Assembly (NCBI GenBank): GCA_017441705.1
Contig: JAFRWU010000039.1
Coordinates: 182-64,181, forward strand
Direction: 5' to 3'
Source of the DNA: Clostridia bacterium
GTDB lineage: Bacteria > Bacillota > Clostridia > Oscillospirales > QAMX01
DNA length: 64,000 nt
The notes under the pieces are model-generated. The model was not told the DNA's origin and searched no databases. It was given only the letters and a program-made list of their open reading frames with translations. Each line of letters starts with the position of its first letter. Position 1 is the first letter of the stretch. Positions 546 through 11,100 of this stretch are shown here, piece by piece. A program made the position numbers and the translations under genes.

Positions 546-1751
546 ATGGCAAGAAAAAGACCGGACGGCGACGGGCTTGTTCGCAAAAGAAAAGACGGAC
601 GATGGGAAGGCCGCATCATCATCGGACACAAGGAGGATGGCGCGCCGATCTACAAATCCGTCTTCGCCAAAACGCAAAAAGAATTGATGCCGAAACTCCA
701 CGGCGCCATCGACTGTTACCGCGACGCGGATCTGAGCGAGCAGGGCAACATGACGCTGAGCGATTGGATCGAGCAGTGGCTCACAAGCTACGCCGAGCCG
801 ACGCTGCGCGAGAGTACCGTCCGGGGGTATCGCAGTGACGTGCGTCATCACATCAAGCCTGCGCTGGGAAATAAAATGCTGCGCTCCATCACGCAGCGGG
901 ACATACAGAAATTCTATAACGCGCTGGGTCGGAAGACGTACAAAGCAAGTGACGGAAGCGAGCGTTGCCTTGCCGACGCCACGGTGCGCGGCGTTCACAT
1001 GCTGCTCCACGAGATCATGGAAGCGGCGGTGCACTCCCGGCTGATTGTGCAGAACCCGACGGATGGAACGGTGATCCCCAAGCTCAACCGTCCGCCCATG
1101 AAAATTCTCAATGAAGAGCAGCTCGACAAGTTCATGGAAGCGATCCGCGCCGAGCCGCTGTGGTACGATTTCTTCTACACGGAGATCACGACAGGACTGC
1201 GCCGCGGCGAGATCTGCGGGCTCAAGTGGTGCGACCTCGATGAGACAAATGGGACGCTGAAGATATGCCGCTCCATTCATTCGGCTCCCGGCGGCGCGCT
1301 GGAGGTTGGCAATCCGAAAACTGAAAAAGGGACTCGCACGATCCTGCTACCGGCAAGCACGCTCCATGTGCTAAAGGAGCGGCGCAAGACGGCGCTGACC
1401 GAATGGATCTTCCCCAGTCTGCTGGAGCCGGAGAAACCGACGGCGCCCAGCGCGGCGTATCATCGGCTGAAAGTGATCCTCAATGGCGCGGGGCTGCCGG
1501 ACATTCGCTTTCACGATCTGCGTCACACCTTCGCCACCCACGCCATGCGCAGCGGCGTGGACGCCAAGACGCTTTCCGGCATCCTCGGTCACACCAACGC
1601 CAGTTTCACGCTGGACACCTACACCCACGTCACCACGGACATGCAGAAGAACGCCTCGGTCATCGTGGGAGATTTCATGGAAGAACTATTTGGGAAGGAG
1701 TTGAAACCGTGGGAAAGAAACGAAAGTCCGGAGAAGGAACGCTCCGATTGA
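546..1751 (+). CDS. Tyrosine-type site-specific recombinase/integrase (paralog 1)
   Basis: Catalytic motifs are present: TGLRRGEICGLKW (Arg), HDLRHTFATHAM (H-x-x-R) and LGHTNASFTLDTYTHV (His/Tyr). The N-terminus has an arm-type/AP2-like motif, RKDGRWEGRIIIG. RBS AGAGGTGAAA lies upstream of the ATG. Confidence 0.92.
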   Translation: MARKRPDGDGLVRKRKDGRWEGRIIIGHKEDGAPIYKSVFAKTQKELMPKLHGAIDCYRDADLSEQGNMTLSDWIEQWLTSYAEPTLRESTVRGYRSDVRHHIKPALGNKMLRSITQRDIQKFYNALGRKTYKASDGSERCLADATVRGVHMLLHEIMEAAVHSRLIVQNPTDGTVIPKLNRPPMKILNEEQLDKFMEAIRAEPLWYDFFYTEITTGLRRGEICGLKWCDLDETNGTLKICRSIHSAPGGALEVGNPKTEKGTRTILLPASTLHVLKERRKTALTEWIFPSLLEPEKPTAPSAAYHRLKVILNGAGLPDIRFHDLRHTFATHAMRSGVDAKTLSGILGHTNASFTLDTYTHVTTDMQKNASVIVGDFMEELFGKELKPWERNESPEKERSD

Positions 1752-3163
1752 GAAAGGATGGCCGCTGGGAAGGCCGCATCGTCGTCGGCTACGACGAGAA
1801 GGGCGCACCCATCACGAAAAGCGTCACCGCCGTGTCTAAAGCTGTCTGCCAGGAGAAGCTGAAAGAACTCAAAGTAAAGTGCGGCGTCGTCACCGGCAAA
1901 GCAAAGCCGGACATGCCCTTCGGCGACTGGATCGACCTGTGGTATCAGACCTGGTCCAAGCCCGGCCTGCGGATCACGACACAGCAGTGCTACGAAGATC
2001 GGATCTACAATCACATCATCCCACACGTCGGTGAAATCCCTCTGAACAAGCTGACACAGAGCGACCTACAGCAGTTCTACGCGGAGCTGAAGCGGAACGG
2101 ACGGCGTATCCGCCGCGATCTCTACGGTCCCGGCCTGTCCGACCGCATGGTGCGCTCCTGTCACACCACCTGCCGGATCGCACTGGAGAAGGCGAAAACC
2201 GAGGGTCTGATCCGCGTGAATCCCGCCATCGGCTGCAAGCTGCCGCCGAAGAAGGCACGGGAGATGCAGGTGCTCTCCCATGATGAAATGCAGCGGTTTC
2301 TGATCCAGGCGAAGGAGGATGGCTTCTATGAGATAATGCTCCTGGAACTGGCGACCGGCATGCGGCGCGGCGAGATCTGCGCGCTGCAGTGGGACGATCT
2401 GAATCTGCGCACCGGTGAGCTCCATATTCAGCGGCAGGTGATTCACGTCGCAGGCGCATTGCACGAGTCAGCGCCGAAGACGAAAAGCTCGGACCGGGTG
2501 GTGATCCTGCCTCCGGCGGTGCTGGCCGTGCTGCGGGAGCTGAAGGAGCGAACGGACTCACGCTGGATGTTCCCCTCACCGGTAAAAGAAGACGCTCCGC
2601 TGGATCCGCAGAGCGTCTATCGGAAGATGAAAAAGGTGCTGGTGCGGGCGCAGTGCAAGGATATCCGCTTCCACGACCTGCGCCATACCTTCGCTACGAC
2701 AGCCTTGGAGCACGGCATGGACGTGAAAACGCTCTCCGCCATCATCGGCCACATCTCGTCGGCGACCACCATTGACATATACAGCCATATCACCGGCGCC
2801 ATGCAGCAGCAGGCCGCGCAGAAAATCGAGCGCGGGATCGGCCACAGCGAGGCGTATGAGCCCCACGAAACGCTGGACAACCAACTTCCCACCGAAGGCG
2901 GAAAACCGCCCGTAAGCCCACCGTTCGCCCCGTACAAGGGCAAGGTGCGCAAACCCGGCACCGGCGGGATCTACGAACTGAACGATCACCTCTTTGGGGG
3001 CCGCTATTCGCCCACCAACGCCCAAGGCAAGCGCGAGGTGCATACGGTCTATGCCAAGACAAAGGAGGAATGCGAGGAACTGCTGAAGAAAATGATTGTA
3101 GAGGTGCGGGAGAGAATCAAGAAAGAGAAAAGCGCATGGCATGAGAAGGTACATAGCGGCTAA
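1709..3163 (+). CDS. Tyrosine-type site-specific recombinase/integrase (paralog 2) with a long C-terminal extension
   Basis: Motifs TGMRRGEICALQW, HDLRHTFATTAL and IGHISSATTIDIYSHI are present. I chose the GTG at 1709 as the start: it follows GGAAGGAG, and the N-terminus VGKKRKSGEGTLRLRKDGRWEG parallels MARKRPDGDGLVRKRKDGRWEG of paralog 1. The track ORF start at 1403 lies inside integrase 1. Confidence 0.88.
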   Translation: MGKKRKSGEGTLRLRKDGRWEGRIVVGYDEKGAPITKSVTAVSKAVCQEKLKELKVKCGVVTGKAKPDMPFGDWIDLWYQTWSKPGLRITTQQCYEDRIYNHIIPHVGEIPLNKLTQSDLQQFYAELKRNGRRIRRDLYGPGLSDRMVRSCHTTCRIALEKAKTEGLIRVNPAIGCKLPPKKAREMQVLSHDEMQRFLIQAKEDGFYEIMLLELATGMRRGEICALQWDDLNLRTGELHIQRQVIHVAGALHESAPKTKSSDRVVILPPAVLAVLRELKERTDSRWMFPSPVKEDAPLDPQSVYRKMKKVLVRAQCKDIRFHDLRHTFATTALEHGMDVKTLSAIIGHISSATTIDIYSHITGAMQQQAAQKIERGIGHSEAYEPHETLDNQLPTEGGKPPVSPPFAPYKGKVRKPGTGGIYELNDHLFGGRYSPTNAQGKREVHTVYAKTKEECEELLKKMIVEVRERIKKEKSAWHEKVHSG

Positions 3164-3206
3164 GATCCATATAAATGGCTTTGCGTATCTATTGTTATCT
3201 ATATGC

Positions 3207-3235
3207 TTGACAAACGCGCGTACATTTGCTATAAT
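3207..3235 (+). promoter_or_regulatory. Consensus sigma-A-type promoter of the TIR-like gene
   Basis: TTGACA (3207-3212), exactly 17 nt, then TATAAT (3230-3235). It lies 34 nt upstream of the proposed ATG at 3269. Confidence 0.75.
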
Positions 3236-3268
3236 CATTTCATCAAAAACACGGAGGAAATGACGAAT

Positions 3269-4441
3269 ATGGCAAAAAAAGTTGTGCCTGATGATGCAAA
3301 CAATGAGACTGTTGTTCGGGAAAAGAAAGTGAACACGCAAAGATTGCCAAAGATAATGCAAACCAATGTGCCTTCCCACTCATTGAAAGATGCGTTGACC
3401 GTCCCTCAAGCAATTTGGGATAATCTTGCTGGCAAGCCAAGTTCACCGCTCCAAGTTTGTTCTGCTCTTGATTTATCTCCCTCCAGTTCTAAATGGCGTG
3501 ATCTTGCTGGAGCATCGATTGCATATGGTCTTACCTCGGGTGGGTGGAACGCAAAGCAGATTTCAATAGAACCTATTGGAAAGAGAGCAATTGCACCAAC
3601 CCAAGATGGAGATGATTCAAAGGCAATTCGAGAGGCGACATTAAAACCGAGTATTCTTAAGCGCTTTTATGAATACTATGATGGGAAGAAGTTTCCCAAA
3701 GATAATATTGCTGAAAATATTCTTGTTGAGTGGGGAGTTCCAAAGGAACGTGCACCTAAAGTGTTAGCGCTTATAAAAGAAAACGGCTATTTTGCAGGTA
3801 TGCTTACTGAGGTTAAGGGTAGCCAATATATTTCAATTGGTAGCACCACAACTATAATCGATGCTGATCAAGACATTGATTCCACCAGCGAAGAAACGCA
3901 AGAGGAGGATTCGGTGTTGCCGACCGAACTGCTTGAGCGACTTGACCTATCTAAAAAGACTGAAGATTTGAATGCTCCTCCCACAAGTAGACCAGTTGAT
4001 AAGCCTTATAGCAACAACAAAGTCTTTATCTCGCACGGAAAAAATCGATCGATGGTCGAAAATCTTAAAGAGCTTCTCATTTTCGGATCGTTTGAGCCTG
4101 TTGTATCCACTGAACGAGAAACGACTGCTATACCAGTTCCAGAAAAAGTTTTCTCTGATATGCGAGAGTGCCACGCTGGTATTATCCATATAGAAGAGGA
4201 AAGATCATTTATTGACACTGAAGGCAATCCGCATAAGATGCTGAACGAAAATGTGCTGATTGAAATTGGAGCTGCAATTGCACTTTATGGCGACCGGATT
4301 ATTTTGCTTTGCCAAAGGGATATTACCTTGCCATCTAATCTTCAGGGACTTTATCGTTGTAATTATGATGGTGATAAGCTGGATTATGATGCGACGATGA
4401 AGCTCCTAAAAACATTTAACAGTTTCAAGACTGCAAAATAA
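3269..4441 (+). CDS. TIR-like (CAP12/PycTIR-type, PF10137-like) domain protein with an unrecognised N-terminal region; candidate single-gene defence effector
   Basis: C-terminal aa ~251-367 read KVFISHGKN…IPVPEKVFSDM…HAGIIHI…NENVLIEIGAAIALYGDRIILLCQRDITLPSNLQGLY. This matches the remembered pattern of 'predicted nucleotide-binding protein containing TIR-like domain' (VFIVHG…IEKFE…NVIFELGYFIGKLGR…LPSDLSG). GGAGG at 3253-3257 favours ATG 3269; the track start 3203 sits inside the promoter. The gene is AT-rich: two hand-counted 60-nt lines gave 32% and 47% G+C, against 58% in the integrase. Confidence 0.7.
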   Translation: MAKKVVPDDANNETVVREKKVNTQRLPKIMQTNVPSHSLKDALTVPQAIWDNLAGKPSSPLQVCSALDLSPSSSKWRDLAGASIAYGLTSGGWNAKQISIEPIGKRAIAPTQDGDDSKAIREATLKPSILKRFYEYYDGKKFPKDNIAENILVEWGVPKERAPKVLALIKENGYFAGMLTEVKGSQYISIGSTTTIIDADQDIDSTSEETQEEDSVLPTELLERLDLSKKTEDLNAPPTSRPVDKPYSNNKVFISHGKNRSMVENLKELLIFGSFEPVVSTERETTAIPVPEKVFSDMRECHAGIIHIEEERSFIDTEGNPHKMLNENVLIEIGAAIALYGDRIILLCQRDITLPSNLQGLYRCNYDGDKLDYDATMKLLKTFNSFKTAK

Positions 4442-4483
4442 TATCCGTTTTGATAATTTGCGCCGCAGTAAACAAAGAAATAG

Positions 4484-4521
4484 AAAAAATCCTCTGAGAT
4501 CATTGATCCCAGAGGATTTTT
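4484..4521. terminator. Bidirectional intrinsic terminator between the TIR-like gene and tRNA-Pro
   Basis: AATCCTCTG (4488-4496) pairs with CAGAGGATT (4510-4518), with an inner GATC/GATC pairing. An A-run lies 5' and a T-run 3', so it can work on both strands. Confidence 0.75.
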
Positions 4522-4596
4522 GGTCCGAGTGACTGGTTTCGAACCAGCGGCCTCGTGGTCCCAAACCACGCGCTCTACCATCTGAGCTACACCCGG
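4521..4596 (-). tRNA. tRNA-Pro (anticodon UGG), CCA encoded
   Basis: Folded by hand. Acceptor CCGGGTG/CACTCGG with one G-U pair; D stem GCTC/GAGC; anticodon stem CGTGG/CCACG with loop TTTGGGA; T arm GCTGG-TTCGAAA-CCAGT; discriminator A plus CCA. Confidence 0.9.
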
Positions 4597-4663
4597 ATAT
4601 GAAATTGACTTACGGACGGGGAAGACGGCTCTGCGGCAAAGCGGCCTGCCCCGGAGCGATACT

Positions 4664-4692
4664 ATTGTAGCATAATCGGACGCGGGTTTCAA
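4664..4692 (-). promoter_or_regulatory. Promoter of tRNA-Pro
   Basis: On the minus strand: TTGAAA (4692-4687), 17 nt, TACAAT (4669-4664). It lies about 70 nt upstream of the tRNA 5' end. Confidence 0.6.
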
Positions 4693-4817
4693 GCGCTTTC
4701 CCCGGCGTTCCGCGGCAATCCGGCAAAGAGGCGTGCCGTCCGGCTCTGACACAGGGTGGAAAGAGGGAGGAAGACCGGGAGGGATCTCCGTTTTCCCTCG
4801 ATTGTCGAAGGTTTTTC

Positions 4818-4847
4818 TTGACAAGCAAACGCCCGATGCGATAAAAT
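4818..4847 (+). promoter_or_regulatory. Candidate glyQS promoter
   Basis: TTGACA (4818-4823), 18 nt, TAAAAT (4842-4847). It lies about 70 nt upstream of ATG 4918. Confidence 0.55.
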
Positions 4848-4917
4848 AAACAAGATAGGGGCAAAGCGCTCCGGCGCGGCTCCCGAAAGGTTCAGACAAG
4901 AATACGGAGGACAAACC

Positions 4918-6327
4918 ATGCTGAAAAACAACGAAAAAACGATGGACGCCATCGTCACGCTGTGTAAAAACCGCGGCTTTATATACAGTGGCAGCGAGAT
5001 CTACGGAGGGCTTGCCAACACCTGGGATTACGGCCCGCTCGGCGTGGAATTCAAGAACAACATCAAAAAAGCCTGGTGGAAGAAATTCGTGCAGGAAAAT
5101 CCGCTGAACGTCGGACTGGACGCGGCGATCCTGATGAACCCGCAGGTTTGGGTCGCCTCCGGCCACGTGGCGACCTTCAACGATCCTCTGATCGACTGCA
5201 AAAACTGTAAAACGCGTCACCGCGCCGATAAGCTGATCGAGGAATGGCAGAAAGAAAACGGGATCACCGGTGTGATCGTGGAAGCCATGACCAACGAGCA
5301 GATGGTGGCCTACATCAAGGAAAACGGCATCCCCTGCCCCGACTGCGGAAAGAGCGATTTCACCGACATCCGCAAGTTCAACCTGATGTTCAAGACCTTC
5401 CAGGGCGTCAACGAAGACACCGCCTCCACGGTCTACCTCCGCCCCGAAACGGCGCAGGGCATTTTCGTCAACTTCAAAAACGTCGCCAGGACCACGCGCA
5501 AAAAGCTGCCCTTCGGCGTCTGCCAGATCGGCAAATCCTTCCGCAACGAGATCACCCCGGGCAACTTCACCTTCCGCACCCGCGAATTCGAGCAGATGGA
5601 GCTGGAATTCTTCTGCAAGCCGGGCACCGAGCTGGAATGGTTCGATTACTGGAGAAAGTTCTGCAGGGAGTGGCTCCTGTCGCTGGGCATGAAGGAGGAA
5701 AACCTCCGGCTGCGCGACCACGAAAAAGAGGAGCTCAGCTTTTACTCCAACGCCACCACGGACTTCGAATTCGTCTTCCCGTTCGGCTGGGGCGAGCTCT
5801 GGGGCGTCGCCTCCCGCACCAACTACGACCTGACGGCGCATCAGAACACGTCCGGTCAGGATATGACCTATTTCGATCAGGAGACGAGCGAGCATTATAT
5901 CCCCTACGTGGTGGAGCCCTCCCTCGGCGCCGACCGCGTGGCGCTGGCCTTCCTCTGCGACGCCTACGACGTGGAGGAGATCACCGACGCGAAGGGCAAA
6001 ACCGATTCCCGTACGGTCCTGCGCCTGCATCCGGCGCTGGCTCCCTTCAAAGCGGCGGTCCTGCCCCTTTCCAAGAAGCTCTCCGACCCTGCCATGGAGA
6101 TCTACCGGAACCTCTCGAAGAAGTTTATGGTGGACTTTGACAACGCCGGCGGCATCGGAAAGCTCTACCGGAGACAGGATGAGATCGGTACCCCTTACTG
6201 CATCGTTTACGACTTTGACAGCGTAGAAGATCACTGCGTCACTGTCCGTGACAGAGATACGACCGAGCAGGTCAGGATCCCCATCGACAGCCTGGAAAAC
6301 TACATCGCCGGGAAGATCGATTTCTGA
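4918..6327 (+). CDS. glyQS: Glycine--tRNA ligase (homodimeric class II GlyRS)
   Basis: N-terminus [45 protein letters not shown], plus [25 protein letters not shown] and GADRV motifs. RBS GGAGGA lies upstream. Confidence 0.95.
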
Positions 6328-6794
6328 GAAACACAAGCGATATAAGCCCAAGGGCGCAAGCTCTTGGGCTATTCGCGTAAGCAAAAACGGCCGCTTTTTC
6401 CGGGATAAGGCGAGAGAACGACCGTTTGTCCGGCGGCGTTTGCATCAAGCCGGAGGTCATATACGGACCGTTCTGACAGCGAAAAGATCAGGGCGGAAAC
6501 CGGTCCGCACCGGATCCCCGGAAAGCCGGGAAGCAAAAAAGTGCCGCCGGGGCGGGATCGCAGACGGATACGGCGTCAAATACGCGATATTACAGTGCGT
6601 ATAGACAGAACCCCCGGGAAGAAGCAAACGATGCGGGGGATTTCGCAGAAGCGCAGGGAGCCGCGAAAGAATAATAAATAGCTATATAAGAATACATAAA
6701 TATGCATATATGAAGGAATAAGAACAAAATTATAGAAAAATAGCGAAAAGAAATATTAATAATATCTGATAGTAATAGAATGGAGAGGCTTATT

Positions 6795-7556
6795 ATGTCG
6801 CTGGAAGAGATTTTCAGGCTTCTGGAGAGGAAAAAAGAGGAGAAAAGACCGGCGCCGCCGACGTGGATCGTCTGTGGCCTCGGAAATCCCGGCGCCAAAT
6901 ACGAGACGTCTCGTCATAACGTGGGATTCGAAACACTGCGCTTTTTTGAGGAGCGCTTCGGCTTCAGAACCACGCGACTGGAATTCAAGGCGCTGACGGC
7001 GCGCGTAATCCTGAAGCTTCCCGACGGCAAAGAAGAAAGCGTGCTTTTCATGCGCCCGCAAACCTTCATGAACAACTCCGGCGAAGCGGTGGGGGAGGCC
7101 GCGCGCTTTTACAAGATCCCCCCGGAGCACGTCCTGATCATCTACGACGACGTGTCTCTGGAGGAAGGACATCTCCGGATACGCGCGAAAGGAAGCGACG
7201 GAGGACACAACGGGATCAAAAGCATCATCTGGCATCTCGGGACCGACGTCTTCCCGCGCATCAAGCTGGGCGTCGGATCGCCTCCGACCAAGGAGTACGA
7301 TATGGTGGGCTGGGTGCTGGGACAGCCCGACGAGGAAGCGAGAAAAAAGATCGCCGCAGCGGCGGCGAAAGCGCCCGATGCGGCTCTGGAGATCATGGCC
7401 TGCGGCGTACCGGCGGCCGCGTCCCGCTTCAACGGCCCGGCGATCCGGCCGGCAGGATCCGGCAAGAAACCGGCCGGGGACAAAGAGCGGAGCGAAGACG
7501 GCGCCGTTCAGGAAGAAGCACAGGAAACGGAAAGCCGGGAGGAAAGCTTGTCATGA
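6795..7556 (+). CDS. pth: Peptidyl-tRNA hydrolase with N- and C-terminal extensions
   Basis: Motifs GLGNPGAKYETSRHNVGF, FMNNSGEAV and DGGHNGIKSI are present. ATG 6795 follows GGAGAGG; the track start 6780 overlaps that RBS. The stop overlaps the mfd start (ATGA). Confidence 0.9.
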   Translation: MSLEEIFRLLERKKEEKRPAPPTWIVCGLGNPGAKYETSRHNVGFETLRFFEERFGFRTTRLEFKALTARVILKLPDGKEESVLFMRPQTFMNNSGEAVGEAARFYKIPPEHVLIIYDDVSLEEGHLRIRAKGSDGGHNGIKSIIWHLGTDVFPRIKLGVGSPPTKEYDMVGWVLGQPDEEARKKIAAAAAKAPDAALEIMACGVPAAASRFNGPAIRPAGSGKKPAGDKERSEDGAVQEEAQETESREESLS

Positions 7557-10500
7557 GAGCGCTTTTGGACAGGCTGACCTCTCTCCCGGAGATCGGCGAG
7601 ATCTTCCGGAGACTGGAAACGGGAAAAACGCCGGTGCTTTTGACCGGGCTTTCCCCGATCCACAAGGCGCACGTGATCGCCGCGATCCGGCGAAAGACGG
7701 GGCGGTGCGTGGCGGTTATCGGCGCGGACGACCGGGCTCTGTCGCGCATCGCGCTGGACGCCGAGGTCTTCGCGGGGGAGGAAAGCGCCGTTCTCGTCCC
7801 CAAGGAACAGATTTTTTATCAGGCGGACAGCGCCTCCCGGGAAAGCGAGCAGAGGCGCATCGCCTTCTTTTACGAGTGGGAGCGGACGCCGCTTGCCTTC
7901 CTGTCCGCGGAAGCGGCGGCGGCGCGCACGCTGCCGCCGGAGATCCTGAAGAAGGCGGTGATCCGGCTGCGGGTGGGGGATATCCTGGAACCCGCGGAGC
8001 TTTCCCGCCGCCTGGTGGACGCCGGATATCGCCGGGTGGAGGCCATCGACGCGCGCTCCGGCGGAGAATTCGCGGTGCGCGGCAGTATTTTCGATATCTA
8101 TCCGGTCAATGCGGAGCTGCCCTACCGCATCGACTTTTTCGACGACGAGGTCGATTCCATCGCCCGGTTTTCCACCGAGACCCAGCGCCGCGTCGATCAG
8201 ACGGGCGAAGCGGTGATCCTCCCGGCGGCTGAGGCGCTGCCCCGGCATGCCGAGGGCGGGATCGAAGGCTGTGCGGAACGCATCCGTCTTCTGGAGGAAA
8301 GGCTGAAAAGGCGGAAAAAGCTCTCGGATAAGCTGCGGGAAACGCTGGAAGGCGACAGAGAAGCGCTTCTGGAAAACGGGACCTTTGCCGCGATCGACCG
8401 GATCTATCCCCAGATTTACGGAGAATTTGCTTCGGCTCTGGATCATCTGCCTCCTGACGCGATCGTGGTCCTGGACGATCCCGGAAGGATCGCCGAAAGC
8501 ATGAAAAACGCCGACTGGCGGCGGGGGGAAGAGGCGGTTTCGCTGATGGAAGCCGGTCTGATCTCCGATGAACAGACCGACTGGATGATGGACCACGCGG
8601 CCTTTGTCCAGACGCTCGCGGGGAAGAGCGTCGTGATGCTGGACACCTTTACGGCAGGCGGCTACGAGCCCGCGCCGCGCGCGGTGACCTCGATCCTGAC
8701 CAAGGAGCTGAGCGGCATCACCGGCGGTTTCGAAGGCGCGGCGGAGGAGATCGGGACCTATCTCGCCGCGGGTTACGCGGTGCTTTTCTGCGCCGGAAAC
8801 GCGCATCGCGCCGAGGTGGCGGTGGACGCCTTCCGGGAGGAAGGGATCAAAGCCCGCTATATGACCGCGGAAAGCGCCGAACCGGAAAAGGGAAGCCTCG
8901 TCGTGACCGATGCCGCGCTTTCCGCGGGCGCGGAGTATCCCGCCCTGAAGCTTGCGATCCTGACCGAAGGGATCCGTACCCGCACCTCTTCCCGCAGGGC
9001 CAAAAAAAGCGCCCGCAAAGAGGGCGGAGAGGCGATCCGCTCCTTCGCAGACCTCCATCCCGGGGATCTTGTGGTGCACGACGCTTACGGCATCGGAAGA
9101 TTCGCAGGGATCGCCCCGATCGAGACCGACGGTCTGCAAAAGGACTATATCAAGATCCAGTATTTCGGAAGCGACGTCCTTTACGTCCCGGTGACCCAGC
9201 TCGACCTGATCGCCAAGTACATCGGAGCCGGGGACGAAGGCACGGTGAAACTGAACCGGATGGGCGGCGGCGACTGGGTGCGCGCCAAATCCCGCGCCAA
9301 GGCGGCGGCGAAGGAGCTGGCGGGCAAGCTGATCGCGCTTTACGCCGCGCGCGCAAAGCTCAAGGGTTTCGCTTTCCCGAAAGACAGCGAATGGCAGAAG
9401 GAATTTGAGGAAGGCTTCGAATACGAGGAGACCGAGGACCAGCTCCGCACCACGCAGGAAATCAAGCGCGATATGGAAAGCGAAGTGCCCATGGACAGGC
9501 TTTTGTGCGGCGACGTGGGCTTCGGCAAGACCGAGGTCGCCTTCCGTGCGGTGATGAAATGCGTGATGGGCGGGAAGCAGGCGGCGATCCTGGTGCCCAC
9601 CACGGTGCTCGCGCGTCAGCATTATCAGACCGCGCTGCACCGGTTCCGCGGCTATCCGCTCCGGATCGGGGTCCTTTCCCGCTTCACGCCCGCGGCCAAG
9701 TCGGCGGAATACCTGCGCCAGATGAGATCCGGCATGCTGGACCTGGTGGTGGGGACTCACAAGCTTCTGGGGAAAAACGTGGCGTTCCGGGATCTCGGCC
9801 TTCTGGTGGTGGACGAGGAGCAGCGCTTCGGCGTCAGCCATAAAGAGCGGCTGAAGGAGCTTGCGCGGACGGTGGACGTCCTGACTCTGACCGCGACGCC
9901 GATCCCCCGCACGCTGAACATGGCGCTTTCGGGAATCCGGGACATGTCGATTCTGGAGGAAGCGCCGCATAACCGGCATCCGGTGCAGACCTACGTGCTC
10001 GAACACGACGAAAGCGTCCTCCGGGACGCGATTTCCAGGGAGCTTTCCCGCGGCGGGCAGGTCTATTATCTCCACAACAAGATCGAAACCATCACCCGCA
10101 CCGCGTCGCGGCTGCAGCAGGCTTTCCCCGACGCCCGGATCGCTGTGGGGCACGGACAGATGAAGCCCGAGGAGCTTTCCGAGGTCATGCGGGAAGTGGT
10201 GGAGGGCGAAGTGCAGATCCTGGTCTGCACCACCATCATCGAAACCGGCATCGACATCCCCAACGTGAACACCCTGATCGTGGAGGACGCAGACCGGATG
10301 GGCCTTGCCCAGCTTCATCAGATCCGCGGCCGCGTCGGCCGGTCCAACCGCCGGGCGTACGCCTATCTGACCTATCATCGGGGAAAGGTGCTTACGGAGG
10401 TGGCCTCCAAACGGCTTTCCGCCATCCGGGAATTCGCCGAATTCGGCGCGGGCTTCCACATCGCCATGCGCGATCTGGAGATCCGCGGCGCGGGCAACGT

Positions 10501-11053
10501 CCTCGGCGCCGAGCAGTCGGGACATATGGTGTCGGTGGGCTACGACATGTATCTGCGCCTCCTGGATGAAGCCGTGGTGGAGGCCAAGGGTGAAACGCCG
10601 GCCAAAAAGGCGGAATGCACCGTGGATCTGGAGATCGACGCCCGCATCCGCGAATCGTATATTCCCAATGCGCCGGAAAGACTCGACATTTACCGGCGGA
10701 TCGCCTACATCCGCACGAAGGAAGACGCGGAGGATATGACCGACGAGCTTCTGGATCGCTACGGAGAATTCGGAGGGGAGGTCCGGAATCTGATGCGGAT
10801 CGCCCTTCTCCGGAACGAGGCGGCCGAAGCGGGGATCTGCGAGATCTCCGAAAAGAAAGGAACGCTCACTCTGCGCCTCGCTTCCCCCGACTTCATGAAG
10901 ATCTCCGCGCTCTGCGTCATGCCCGCTTTCAAGGGAAGGATCTTCCTGAACGCCGGGTCGGAACCCTATCTGTCTCTCCGGGTCAAAACGGGCGAAGATC
11001 CGCTTTCCCTGGCGGACGCGGTGGTGAAAGGCCTGCAGAGTACTGAAAAATAA
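7553..11053 (+). CDS. mfd: Transcription-repair coupling factor
   Basis: 1166 aa with superfamily-2 helicase motifs (GDVGFGKTEVA, DEEQRFG, TATPIPRT, QIRGRVGR). The pth-mfd arrangement is conserved. Confidence 0.95.
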   Translation: MRALLDRLTSLPEIGEIFRRLETGKTPVLLTGLSPIHKAHVIAAIRRKTGRCVAVIGADDRALSRIALDAEVFAGEESAVLVPKEQIFYQADSASRESEQRRIAFFYEWERTPLAFLSAEAAAARTLPPEILKKAVIRLRVGDILEPAELSRRLVDAGYRRVEAIDARSGGEFAVRGSIFDIYPVNAELPYRIDFFDDEVDSIARFSTETQRRVDQTGEAVILPAAEALPRHAEGGIEGCAERIRLLEERLKRRKKLSDKLRETLEGDREALLENGTFAAIDRIYPQIYGEFASALDHLPPDAIVVLDDPGRIAESMKNADWRRGEEAVSLMEAGLISDEQTDWMMDHAAFVQTLAGKSVVMLDTFTAGGYEPAPRAVTSILTKELSGITGGFEGAAEEIGTYLAAGYAVLFCAGNAHRAEVAVDAFREEGIKARYMTAESAEPEKGSLVVTDAALSAGAEYPALKLAILTEGIRTRTSSRRAKKSARKEGGEAIRSFADLHPGDLVVHDAYGIGRFAGIAPIETDGLQKDYIKIQYFGSDVLYVPVTQLDLIAKYIGAGDEGTVKLNRMGGGDWVRAKSRAKAAAKELAGKLIALYAARAKLKGFAFPKDSEWQKEFEEGFEYEETEDQLRTTQEIKRDMESEVPMDRLLCGDVGFGKTEVAFRAVMKCVMGGKQAAILVPTTVLARQHYQTALHRFRGYPLRIGVLSRFTPAAKSAEYLRQMRSGMLDLVVGTHKLLGKNVAFRDLGLLVVDEEQRFGVSHKERLKELARTVDVLTLTATPIPRTLNMALSGIRDMSILEEAPHNRHPVQTYVLEHDESVLRDAISRELSRGGQVYYLHNKIETITRTASRLQQAFPDARIAVGHGQMKPEELSEVMREVVEGEVQILVCTTIIETGIDIPNVNTLIVEDADRMGLAQLHQIRGRVGRSNRRAYAYLTYHRGKVLTEVASKRLSAIREFAEFGAGFHIAMRDLEIRGAGNVLGAEQSGHMVSVGYDMYLRLLDEAVVEAKGETPAKKAECTVDLEIDARIRESYIPNAPERLDIYRRIAYIRTKEDAEDMTDELLDRYGEFGGEVRNLMRIALLRNEAAEAGICEISEKKGTLTLRLASPDFMKISALCVMPAFKGRIFLNAGSEPYLSLRVKTGEDPLSLADAVVKGLQSTEK

Positions 11054-11100
11054 TGTAAATTTTATAATGAAATAAAGATATATAGCGAAAGGATATGACT

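What the first reader, a model, noticed from the sequence alone, without database searches (positions are those of the whole stretch)
3207..4521. Orphan TIR-like effector with an unrecognised sensor-sized N-terminus, carried as an AT-rich cargo gene between integrases and tRNA-Pro
- **Seen, domain layout:** the 390-aa ORF (3269-4441) ends in a ~115-aa domain (aa ~251-367, nt ~4019-4369). It reads KVFISHGKN…PVPEKVFSDM…GIIHI…NENVLIEIGAAIALYGDRIILLCQRDITLPSNLQGLY.
- **Seen, N-terminus:** aa 1-250 look like two loosely similar winged-helix-like modules followed by an acidic linker. I could not assign them to any family.
- **Seen, independent unit:** the gene has a textbook promoter (TTGACA-17-TATAAT) and a strong bidirectional terminator.
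- **Seen, composition and position:** it is much more AT-rich than its flanks (32% and 47% G+C in two counted lines versus 58% in the integrase). It lies between two tyrosine recombinases and the 3' end of tRNA-Pro, where cargo genes typically sit.
- **Established knowledge:** the C-terminal pattern resembles the 'TIR-like domain' family (PF10137), used as the NAD+-degrading effector Cap12 in CBASS and PycTIR in Pycsar.
- **Inference:** no cyclase, ThsA-type or other partner gene is present in the window. I therefore read it as a self-contained sensor-effector abortive-infection protein of an undescribed architecture.
Basis: partly seen in the sequence, partly recalled or inferred. Interest (0 to 1): 0.85.

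Follow-up and report, generated by a model that had tools for sequence, protein, structure and literature searches.

The report
Stand-alone winged-helix–TIR immunity-like gene
A horizontally acquired gene at the edge of a tRNA-Pro integrative element encodes a single protein joining an unnamed tandem winged-helix domain to a CBASS/Pycsar-type TIR domain, and it belongs to a large, uncharacterised family that is probably anti-phage but has not been tested.

Summary
ORF 3269-4441 (390 aa) has PF10137 (CAP12/PycTIR TIR) at aa 251-367 (E 4.8e-17). It also has a perfect sigma-70 promoter, a hairpin abutting tRNA-Pro, and 41% G+C against 58-60% in the flanks.

It is not an orphan. Full-length homologues (45-55% identity) occur in 532 of 185,579 species genomes across most phyla.

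No partner gene is conserved in 86 loci, so it is not a CBASS, Pycsar or Thoeris effector.

The N-terminal domain folds confidently (pLDDT 92) as two winged-helix modules. It has no significant Pfam, NCBIfam, PDB or BFVD match.

That domain is portable. It also occurs fused to Ser/Thr kinases (PD-T4-6-like) and to an AAA_15 ATPase. Short forms are paired with DUF4145 or PF18165 genes.

A 91%-identical copy sits in the same integrase-integrase-TIR module at tRNA-Pro in another genome. That 10.8-kb element also carries several PADLOC candidate defence genes.

Best reading: a self-contained sensor-effector NADase that causes abortive infection. The function and the trigger are inferred, not shown. 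I rate it a new variant of a known kind, of moderate interest.

The parts
546..1751 (+). Tyrosine recombinase 1 of the integrative element
   Evidence: PF00589 E 1e-26 and PF14659. PHROG integrase E 2e-78.
1748..3163 (+). Tyrosine recombinase 2. Its start overlaps the stop of recombinase 1 (ATGA).
   Evidence: PF00589 E 9.6e-28. The same gene pair precedes the TIR gene in L006 and L007.
3207..3235 (+). Sigma-70-type promoter, TTGACA-17-TATAAT, with extended -10 TG
   Evidence: 12 of 12 match in the scan. This is a consensus match only; transcription has not been shown.
3253..3257 (+). GGAGG ribosome-binding site, 11 nt upstream of the ATG at 3269
   Evidence: Read from the sequence. An in-frame ATG at 3260 lies only 2 nt from the RBS. 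Database gene calls use 3269.
3269..4441 (+). CDS of the 390-aa winged-helix-TIR protein
3269..3358 (+). aa 1-30: basic disordered N-terminal tail. It leads into the invariant Q31..P35 motif.
   Evidence: pLDDT about 50. Median pI 10.0 across 51 homologues. Invariant columns.
3359..3844 (+). aa 31-192: tandem winged-helix-like domain, unnamed. This is the putative sensor or adaptor module.
   Evidence: pLDDT 92, pTM 0.85. Only weak winged-helix structural neighbours. 1,155 representative proteins at E<=1e-3, with alternative C-terminal domains.
3845..4015 (+). aa 193-249: disordered acidic linker
   Evidence: pLDDT 36-49. Net charge -10, family median -6. Poorly conserved.
4016..4438 (+). aa 250-390: PF10137 TIR domain. 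The putative catalytic Glu E332 is the codon at 4262-4264.
   Evidence: Pfam E 4.8e-17. Foldseek matches to TIR-STING and SPARTA TIR. E332 is invariant in 51 of 51 homologues and aligned to the PycTIR Glu.
4485..4521 (.). 17-bp-stem hairpin flanked by an A-run and a T-run. It is a terminator between the TIR gene and tRNA-Pro.
   Evidence: called on the minus strand. Conserved with compensatory stem changes in L006.
4517..4532 (.). Element/chromosome junction (att core), TTTTTGGTCCGAGTGA, which includes the 3' end of tRNA-Pro
   Evidence: Element homology with L006 ends here, and the two tRNAs then diverge. A repeat with a ~48-nt tRNA-Pro 3' remnant lies 10.8 kb away in L006.
4521..4596 (-). 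tRNA-Pro(UGG), the integration target
   Evidence: ARAGORN. Rfam RF00005, 65 bits.

Best explanation
The gene encodes a self-contained, single-polypeptide sensor-effector immunity protein. It is carried as terminal cargo of an integrative element that targets tRNA-Pro (about 10.8 kb in the sister copy L006).

**Shown**
- The protein is built as a basic tail, a tandem winged-helix domain, a roughly 55-aa disordered acidic linker, and a PF10137 (CAP12/PycTIR-type) TIR domain.
- The TIR domain keeps an invariant Glu (E332) at the position aligned to the PycTIR Glu.
- The gene has its own consensus promoter and a terminator hairpin.
- It is compositionally foreign to its host.
- It has no conserved partner gene.
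- Its N-terminal domain is a portable module. That module also occurs with Ser/Thr kinase and AAA_15 ATPase domains in cis, and with DUF4145 or PF18165 proteins in adjacent genes.

**Inferred**
- By analogy with the characterised PF10137 proteins (TIR-STING/Cap12 and PycTIR), I infer that the TIR is held inactive as a monomer or low oligomer. In those proteins, ligand binding to an N-terminal sensor drives TIR oligomerisation and NAD+ hydrolysis.
- The winged-helix domain would recognise an infection cue. That cue could be a phage nucleic-acid structure or a phage protein.
- Recognition would cluster the protein, the TIR domains would assemble, and NAD+ would be cleaved. The infected cell would then arrest or die before phage release (abortive infection).
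- The identity of the trigger is unknown. The folded N-domain is roughly neutral in charge, so non-specific DNA binding is not obviously favoured.
For: - **TIR identity:** PF10137 at aa 251-367, E 4.8e-17. The TIR fold's best PDB matches are TIR-STING and SPARTA TIR, both NADase effectors activated by oligomerisation.
- **Catalytic residue:** E332 is invariant in 51 of 51 homologues and aligned to the PycTIR Glu.
- **Independent unit:** the gene has a 12/12 consensus promoter and a terminator hairpin.
- **No partner:** clustering of 1,155 neighbouring ORFs from 86 loci gave only tyrosine integrases (9 loci) and ABC-ATPase noise. Among the 150 nearest neighbours, no Pfam or PADLOC family occurs more than 3 times.
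- **Distribution typical of a transferred accessory gene:** 532 of 185,579 species, most phyla and one archaeon, at 45-52% identity. G+C is 41% against about 59%, and GC3 is 0.35 against about 0.78.
- **Mobile, defence-type context:** the same HTH_17-HTH_36-int-int-TIR module sits at tRNA-Pro in a second genome. That element also carries PDC-M42A/B, PDC-S31, PDC-S01 and a type II methyltransferase. L043 repeats the int-TIR-tRNA-Pro order at 48% identity, and 12 of 86 loci have a tRNA or tmRNA within 1.5 kb. Other loci sit by Tn7-like genes, a serine recombinase or a PIN-DUF4411/M78 pair.
- **Effector swapping on one sensor domain:** kinase fusions have N-domains 40-45% identical to the window's, Pkinase E down to 2e-35, and best PADLOC hit PD-T4-6 at E 1e-47 to 1e-54. 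There is an AAA_15 fusion. Short-tail forms have an overlapping downstream gene with DUF4145 or PF18165 in 3 of 3 loci examined.
Against: - There are no functional data for any family member. I found no paper describing this architecture.
- The PADLOC PDC families are untested 'guilt-by-embedding' candidates.
- Immediate neighbours in many loci are housekeeping genes such as aconitase, aminotransferase, catalase and gyrase. I did not measure defence-island enrichment against a genomic background.
- The tRNA association is modest, and several cases are phylogenetically redundant.
- The N-domain has no significant structural relative, so 'sensor' is an architectural inference.
- A short-tail N-domain protein (P0224) sits alone among housekeeping genes.
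- NADase activity is not guaranteed, because some TIR-fold proteins act on other N-glycosidic substrates.
Confidence: 0.55

Rival explanations
1. The biochemistry is the same (a triggered TIR NADase), but the selected function is inter-element competition or stabilisation of the carrying integrative element. It would exclude rival MGEs or plasmids rather than defend the host against lytic phage.
For: - The gene is the terminal cargo next to att in two or three related elements.
- It travels with the element's integrase pair.
- It is nearly absent from phage genomes.
Against: - Most homologues (about 75 of 86 loci) have no integrase within 7 kb, so the family persists without this element.
- A single protein with no antitoxin cannot act as a classical addiction module.
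Confidence: 0.15
2. The TIR-fold domain is not an NADase. It is an N-glycosidase acting on another substrate, such as a nucleotide or a (modified) base in DNA or RNA, as in the related MilB/DNPH1/nucleoside deoxyribosyltransferase enzymes. The winged-helix domain would deliver it to nucleic acid.
For: - Foldseek also returns DNPH1, BcmB and MilB at E about 3e-3 to 1e-2.
- Two of 51 homologues touch PF05014 weakly.
- TIR and MilB/DNPH share the catalytic Glu (paper 10.64898/2026.09.21.753143).
- The weak structural neighbours of the N-domain are nucleic-acid-binding winged-helix arrays, namely SelB and FokI/BpuJI.
Against: - The sequence family is PF10137, whose characterised members are NADases. 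TIR hits outrank DNPH/MilB hits by about two orders of magnitude in E-value.
- The folded N-domain is not basic, with median net charge about 0.
Confidence: 0.12
3. The TIR is a signal-producing enzyme, like Thoeris ThsB, that feeds an effector encoded elsewhere in the genome.
For: - Bacterial TIR domains can make cADPR-type signals (abstract of 10.64898/2025.12.03.692087).
Against: - No effector is linked in any of 86 loci.
- The domain matches PF10137, the effector-type TIR, and not ThsB PF08937.
- Sporadic horizontal spread of a lone gene would not work if it needed an unlinked partner.
Confidence: 0.05
4. It is a non-immune regulator or housekeeping protein. The winged-helix domain would act as a transcription factor, and the TIR-like domain as a nucleotide-binding or protein-interaction module.
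For: - Databases annotate it as 'nucleotide-binding protein'.
- Many neighbours are housekeeping genes.
- A short-tail N-domain protein sits alone by fur and PBP genes.
Against: - It is present in only about 0.3% of species and has no conserved synteny.
- Its composition is foreign and its location is mobile.
- The invariant catalytic-type Glu and the strongly conserved active-site motifs argue for an enzyme.
- The alternative fusion partners (kinase, ATPase, nuclease-type) are typical of conflict systems.
Confidence: 0.05

Closest known systems
Cap12 / TIR-STING effectors of CBASS (e.g. SfSTING, PDB 7un8; 9lmq)
   Same: - Same Pfam TIR family (PF10137) and the best structural match.
- Two-part layout of a sensor domain plus a TIR.
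- Expected activation by oligomerisation and NAD+ depletion.
   Different: - Here the sensor is a tandem winged-helix domain, not STING or SAVED.
- It is N-terminal, joined by a long acidic disordered linker.
- No CD-NTase cyclase lies nearby in any locus.
PycTIR of Pycsar (PDB 8jsj)
   Same: - PF10137 TIR at the C-terminus. It is the only PDB TIR-family hit by sequence, and the Glu motif aligns (NVLIEIG against NVHLEFG).
   Different: - There is no cyclic-nucleotide-binding N-terminal domain.
- There is no PycC cyclase neighbour.
- The sequence relationship is very distant (E 0.19).
PADLOC candidate PDC-S35 (untested single-gene candidate)
   Same: - Five PDC-S35 HMMs match, with best E 7.2e-11. 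Both are single-gene and have a C-terminal TIR-like domain.
   Different: - The match covers only aa 190-369, against profile positions 57-240 of 264.
- The 190-aa winged-helix domain is not part of PDC-S35, and aa 1-250 alone hits no PADLOC model.
- PDC systems are predictions, not validated systems.
SPARTA (short pAgo + TIR-APAZ)
   Same: - The TIR is structurally similar (8spo, 8qlp).
- It illustrates the concept of a sensor of invading nucleic acid that triggers TIR oligomerisation and NAD+ loss.
   Different: - There is no Argonaute or APAZ.
- Nucleic-acid sensing is only a hypothesis for this protein.
PD-T4-6-like Ser/Thr kinase defence proteins
   Same: - Sister proteins with the same N-terminal domain carry a kinase whose best PADLOC match is PD-T4-6. 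This suggests a shared sensor with alternative effectors.
   Different: - The window protein has no kinase domain.
- The PD-T4-6 models match only the kinase portion (aa ~240-525) of the fusion proteins, not the winged-helix N-domain.

Membership tests
PF10137 CAP12/PycTIR TIR domain family | Match to the Pfam HMM above the gathering threshold | tested here: met
   62.5 bits against a cut-off of 24.7, E 4.8e-17, aa 251-367, profile positions 1-118 of 119. All 51 aligned homologues match.
PF10137 CAP12/PycTIR TIR domain family | TIR (flavodoxin-like) fold | tested here: met
   AlphaFold2 C-terminal domain at pLDDT about 85-93. Foldseek top hits are TIR-STING and SPARTA TIR at probability 1.00.
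PF10137 CAP12/PycTIR TIR domain family | Conserved catalytic glutamate of TIR/DNPH-type N-glycosidases | tested here: met
   E332 is invariant in 51 of 51 homologues and aligned to the Glu of the PycTIR NVHLEFG motif. Equivalence with the SARM1/DNPH1 Glu was not tested here: it rests on that alignment, on the shared-Glu statement in the paper read, and on my recollection of the DNPH1 'YELG' motif.
PF10137 CAP12/PycTIR TIR domain family | NAD+ hydrolase activity | not testable with these tools
   This needs a biochemical assay.
CBASS (Cap12/TIR-STING or TIR-SAVED effector) | Adjacent CD-NTase cyclase and a cyclic-oligonucleotide sensor domain (STING/SAVED) in the effector | tested here: not met
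   No cyclase in the window, in L001, in the complete sister element L006 or among the neighbours in 86 loci. The N-terminus has no STING or SAVED match.
Pycsar (PycTIR effector) | Adjacent PycC pyrimidine cyclase and a cNMP-binding domain in the effector | tested here: not met
   Same neighbour surveys. No cNMP-binding domain by Pfam.
Thoeris | ThsB-type TIR (PF08937) with a linked ThsA-type or other signal-responsive effector gene | tested here: not met
   No PF08937 hit. No conserved linked gene.
SPARTA / short pAgo systems | TIR-APAZ protein with an adjacent short Argonaute | tested here: not met
   No Piwi/Ago family appears among the families listed for the neighbours (only the top 25 families are listed). 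There is structural similarity to the TIR part only.
PADLOC PDC-S35 (candidate) | Full-length match to the PDC-S35 HMMs | tested here: inconclusive
   Best E 7.2e-11, but only aa 190-369 against profile positions 57-240 of 264. The N-terminal 250 aa hit nothing in PADLOC.
Genomic-island cargo at a tRNA gene | Integrase(s), a junction at the tRNA 3' end, a direct repeat of the tRNA 3' segment at the far end, and foreign composition | tested here: met
   Integrases. Junction at the tRNA-Pro 3' end. Composition. The far-end repeat is seen only in the sister element L006 (432-480). The window's own far end lies beyond the assembled contig.

The most novel reading that the evidence does not exclude
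The tandem winged-helix N-domain is a previously unnamed, portable invader-sensing module. It defines a new multi-effector family of prokaryotic immune proteins: one sensor wired to a TIR NADase, a Ser/Thr kinase, an AAA_15 ATPase, or a DUF4145/PF18165 partner in trans. It would recognise a conserved phage feature directly, without a second-messenger step.
Probability: 0.4. Interest if true: 0.7.

Novelty: new variant of a known kind. Interest (0 to 1): 0.55.

Why it matters
- TIR NADase effectors are well known, but what switches them on is the open question for each system. Here the TIR sits on an unnamed sensor-sized domain that is well folded and strongly conserved across phyla (45-50% identity).
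- The same domain is reused with at least three other effector types. That makes the family a tractable way to find a new infection cue, and to test how one sensor couples to chemically different outputs.
- The family is moderately widespread: about 0.3% of species, and more than 1,100 clusters at 50% identity for the N-domain. Current defence finders miss it or only half-label it.
- The study also corrects which residue should be mutated for a catalytic-dead control (E332 rather than E292).

Tried and rejected
- **Conserved small downstream partner:** L008 and L013 each have a gene of about 126-130 aa just downstream, but the two are unrelated. The window has none.
- **Most frequent neighbour cluster:** this turned out to be ABC-transporter ATPases lying 1-6 kb away, which is paralogue noise.
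- **Naming the N-domain:**
  - No Pfam or NCBIfam hit.
  - Only sub-threshold hits in some homologues: DUF7226 in 8 of 51 (best E 1e-4), MCM_WH_arc, AAA_assoc_C and YjcQ.
  - A PDB profile search gave nothing significant.
  - Foldseek best E was 0.06 against PDB and 0.01 against BFVD.
- **Internal duplication of the two winged-helix modules:** no sequence similarity.
- **Phage or plasmid carriage:**
  - No hit in 50,697 phage genomes.
  - One weak hit, to the C-terminus only, in 72,556 plasmids.
  - 3 of 2.9 million IMG/VR contigs.
- **The roughly 250-aa N-domain 'proteins' as a separate architecture:** most are truncated TIR fusions that end in VFI[ST]HGKN.
- **Structured RNA:** no T-box or other Rfam family in 2900-7000 except the tRNA.
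- **Literature:** searches for PF10137, PDC-S35, winged-helix plus TIR, and TIR-like/COG4271 found no description of this architecture.
- **Not attempted:**
  - Identifying the host organism.
  - A background-controlled defence score.
Full report
**1. What is there**

The ORF at 3269-4441 (+) encodes 390 aa. The mechanical ORF list extends it to 3203, but that start lies inside the promoter. Public gene calls use 3269, and the identical protein is on five metagenome contigs.

- **Promoter and RBS:** a TTGACA-17-TATAAT promoter with an extended -10 TG lies at 3207-3235 and matches 12 of 12 positions. GGAGG at 3253-3257 lies 11 nt upstream of the ATG.
- **Terminator:** a hairpin with a 17-bp stem at 4485-4521 lies between the stop codon and the 3' end of tRNA-Pro(UGG), which is at 4521-4596 on the minus strand. 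The scan called the hairpin on the minus strand only. It has an A-run on one side and a T-run on the other, so use in both directions is plausible but not shown.
- **Composition:** the gene is 41.4% G+C with GC3 0.345. The two integrases and glyS are 57-60% G+C with GC3 0.74-0.82.

**2. Domain anatomy**

Pfam places PF10137 (CAP12/Pycsar effector TIR) at aa 251-367, E 4.8e-17, covering the profile end to end. NCBIfam has no model for the protein.

An AlphaFold2 model built from 51 homologues shows four parts:
- A disordered basic tail, aa 1-30.
- A very confident domain, aa ~31-192 (pLDDT ~96).
- A disordered linker, aa 193-249. It is acidic, with net charge -10 and a family median of -6.
- A TIR fold, aa 250-390.

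*C-terminal domain.* Foldseek against the PDB returns TIR-STING (7un8, 9lmq; E 1.6e-5 to 1e-4) first. SPARTA TIR-APAZ follows, and then DNPH1, BcmB, MilB and eukaryotic TIRs.

*N-terminal domain.* Modelled alone, it gives pLDDT 92 and pTM 0.85. It consists of two helix-plus-beta-hairpin modules.
- It has no significant structural relative. Best E is 0.06 against the PDB and 0.01 against BFVD.
- Almost every weak hit is a winged-helix protein: SelB WH2-4, the FokI/BpuJI recognition domains, DtxR, MarR and cullin WH.
- Some homologues give sub-threshold Pfam hits to winged-helix families and to DUF7226.
- The two modules share no detectable sequence similarity.
- The folded domain is roughly neutral in charge.

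**3. Catalytic residue**

In 51 homologues, E332 (in NENVLIEIGAA) and E311 are invariant.

The only PDB TIR-family hit by sequence is PycTIR (8jsj). It aligns its NVHLEFG to NVLIEIG. [quoted passage not shown] From memory, the DNPH1 catalytic Glu sits in a similar 'YELG' motif.

E332 is therefore the better catalytic-dead target.

**4. Not an orphan**

- A word-indexed search gave 4,637 hits at E<=1e-3. The top 120 are all about 360-400 aa, cover at least 92% of the query, and share 48-99% identity. They come from Bacillota, Pseudomonadota, Bacteroidota, Nitrospirota and other phyla. Where a source names them, it calls them 'nucleotide-binding protein' or 'TIR domain-containing protein'.
- A motif scan of one genome per species found 532 relatives in 185,579 species. 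They include Planctomycetota, Verrucomicrobiota, Acidobacteriota, Actinomycetota, Chloroflexota, Gastranaerophilales and one Methanomassiliicoccales archaeon. All are 44-52% identical over the full length.
- Such high conservation combined with a sparse, scattered distribution indicates frequent horizontal transfer.

**5. It stands alone**

- I called ORFs within 7 kb of the gene in 86 loci and clustered the 1,155 proteins. Apart from the family itself, only two clusters reach 9-10 loci: tyrosine integrases, and ABC-transporter ATPases lying kilobases away.
- Among the 150 nearest neighbours, no Pfam or PADLOC family occurs more than three times.
- Small downstream ORFs in two loci are unrelated to each other.
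- No cyclase, ThsA-like, SAVED, STING or Argonaute gene appeared in these surveys.

The gene is not an ordinary CBASS, Pycsar or Thoeris effector.

**6. Mobile context**

- *Upstream of the window.* Contig L001 extends the window 920 bp upstream and adds HTH_17 (excisionase-like) and HTH_36 (replication-initiator-like) genes. The contig then ends.
- *Sister element.* A 91%-identical homologue (P0002) lies in L006 in the same HTH_17-HTH_36-x-int-int-TIR order. It is also next to a tRNA-Pro(UGG), but in a different genome, flanked by recJ and relA instead of glyS and pth.
- *Junction.* The DNA of the two copies aligns through the hairpin up to TTTTTGGTCCGAGTGA, which is the tRNA 3' end. The two tRNAs then diverge.
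- *Element size and cargo.* In L006, a roughly 48-nt remnant of the tRNA-Pro 3' half, preceded by a similar hairpin, lies 10.8 kb to the left. That delimits the element. Its other cargo matches PADLOC candidates PDC-M42A/B, PDC-S31 and PDC-S01, plus a type II C5 methyltransferase. Those cargo genes are also AT-rich.
- *Third case.* L043 (Acutalibacteraceae, 48% identity) repeats integrase-TIR-tRNA-Pro.
- *Other loci.*
  - 12 of 86 loci have a tRNA or tmRNA within 1.5 kb, usually with its 3' end facing the gene. That is roughly 2-4 times a naive expectation, but several cases are related lineages.
  - Others sit beside Tn7-like tniQ/tniB/rve genes, a serine recombinase near tmRNA, or a PIN-DUF4411/M78 pair.
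  - Many loci show only housekeeping neighbours.
- *Phages and plasmids.* The family is absent from 50,697 phage genomes, nearly absent from plasmids, and present in only 3 of 2.9 million IMG/VR contigs.

**7. The N-domain is a portable module (the new point)**

An exhaustive phmmer search with aa 26-198 against 1.84 billion representative proteins gave 1,155 hits at E<=1e-3, 608 at E<=1e-10 and 143 at E<=1e-30.

| Architecture among the best 150 | Count | Evidence |
|---|---|---|
| Complete PF10137-type TIR | 51 | |
| Partial TIR (fragment) | 22 | |
| Truncated fragments ending at the start of the TIR | about 10 | |
| Ser/Thr kinase fusion (P0143, P0196, P0209, P0269) | 4 | Pkinase E down to 2e-35; best PADLOC hit PD-T4-6, E 1e-47 to 1e-54 |
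| AAA_15/SMC-type P-loop ATPase start (P0260) | 1 | |
| Short tail class A (about 260 aa) | about 7 | |
| Short tail class B (about 280 aa) | about 6 | |

- The N-domains of the kinase fusions are 40-45% identical to the window's. TIR-fused homologues from other phyla are about equally distant.
- All three class-A proteins I looked up have an overlapping downstream gene of 170-194 aa. It carries DUF4145 in L098 and L099 (these two are homologous to each other) and PF18165 'pPIWI-associating nuclease' in L097. L097 also sits among PIN, GIY-YIG and CoiA nuclease genes.
- One class-B protein stands alone among housekeeping genes.
- One sensor-sized domain wired to interchangeable enzymatic outputs is the usual signature of prokaryotic conflict systems. 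That is established knowledge about such systems, applied here as an inference.

**8. Mechanism**

*Shown:* the architecture, the conserved catalytic-type Glu, the autonomy of the gene, its mobility, and the modularity of the N-domain.

*Inferred:*
- The characterised PF10137 proteins (TIR-STING and PycTIR) are NADases switched on when a ligand-bound sensor domain drives oligomerisation.
- By analogy, the winged-helix domain would recognise an infection cue and cluster the protein. The TIR domains would then assemble and deplete NAD+, giving abortive infection.
- The cue is unknown. Winged-helix arrays bind DNA, RNA or proteins, and the neutral charge of this domain does not favour non-specific DNA binding.
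- The basic tail, with its invariant Q31 and P35, and the acidic linker could take part in autoinhibition. That is speculation.

Confidence in the overall reading is about 0.55.

*Rivals:*
- The same chemistry used for competition between mobile elements (0.15).
- A different N-glycosidic substrate (0.12).
- A Thoeris-like signal generator with an unlinked effector (0.05).
- A non-immune regulator (0.05).

**9. Comparison with the known, and novelty**

- The protein is a member of the PF10137 TIR domain family.
- It fails the defining context features of CBASS, Pycsar, Thoeris and SPARTA.
- PADLOC's PDC-S35 models overlap only aa 190-369. PDC systems are 145 untested 'guilt-by-embedding' candidates (10.1101/2024.01.29.577857).
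- I found no paper describing the winged-helix-TIR architecture or its N-domain. The library does not cover subscription journals, so this is absence of evidence only.

I class it as a new variant of a known kind: a TIR effector on a new sensor. It is moderately interesting. The reuse of the N-domain with kinase, ATPase and nuclease-type partners is the part most worth following up.

Noticed in passing
window 546-3163; L006 5861-9907: Two overlapping tyrosine-recombinase genes (ATGA overlap) recur as a conserved pair. They are preceded by HTH_17 (excisionase-like) and HTH_36 (replication-initiator-like) genes. Together they form the backbone of an integrative element of about 10.8 kb that targets tRNA-Pro(UGG). 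I did not examine why two integrases are kept.
   Followed up: partly
window 4485-4521; L006 11219-11255 and 396-434: The hairpin next to the tRNA-Pro 3' end is conserved between the two elements with compensatory stem changes. A related hairpin precedes the tRNA remnant at the far end of the L006 element. The att region therefore seems to include a terminator-like hairpin.
   Followed up: partly
L006 818-5578: The sister element carries other AT-rich cargo that matches untested PADLOC candidates: PDC-M42A/B (DUF3990 plus HTH), PDC-S31 and PDC-S01 (AAA_14/DUF4143 ATPase, E 1.7e-106). It also carries a type II C5 DNA methyltransferase with no obvious restriction partner.
   Followed up: partly
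P0143, P0196, P0209, P0269 (L096 for P0143): These proteins join the same N-terminal winged-helix domain to a Ser/Thr kinase whose best PADLOC match is PD-T4-6. This looks like an effector-swapped sister family.
   Followed up: partly
L097 6001-7417; L098 4006-5320; L099 5001-6312: Short N-domain-only proteins of about 260-280 aa end in a conserved tail (..NIxIxIhI..IFxSM..). Each is followed by an overlapping gene of 170-194 aa. That gene carries DUF4145 in two loci and PF18165 (pPIWI-associating nuclease) in one. This may be a two-gene version of the system.
   Followed up: partly
L010 1423-6115 and tRNA-Ile 7373-7465; L008 tmRNA 2449-2800 and recombinase 10298-11062: Distant homologues sit beside a Tn7-like tniQ/tniB/rve module next to tRNA-Ile (Stenotrophomonas), and in an islet between tmRNA and a serine recombinase (Clostridium estertheticum).
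   Followed up: no
window 4597-4917: The leader upstream of the glycyl-tRNA synthetase gene has a near-consensus promoter (4818-4847). No T-box or other Rfam family reaches the gathering score there.
   Followed up: yes
window ~6400-7000: An AT-rich stretch (45-47% G+C) with strong positive GC and AT skew lies between glyS and the peptidyl-tRNA hydrolase gene. I did not examine it.
   Followed up: no
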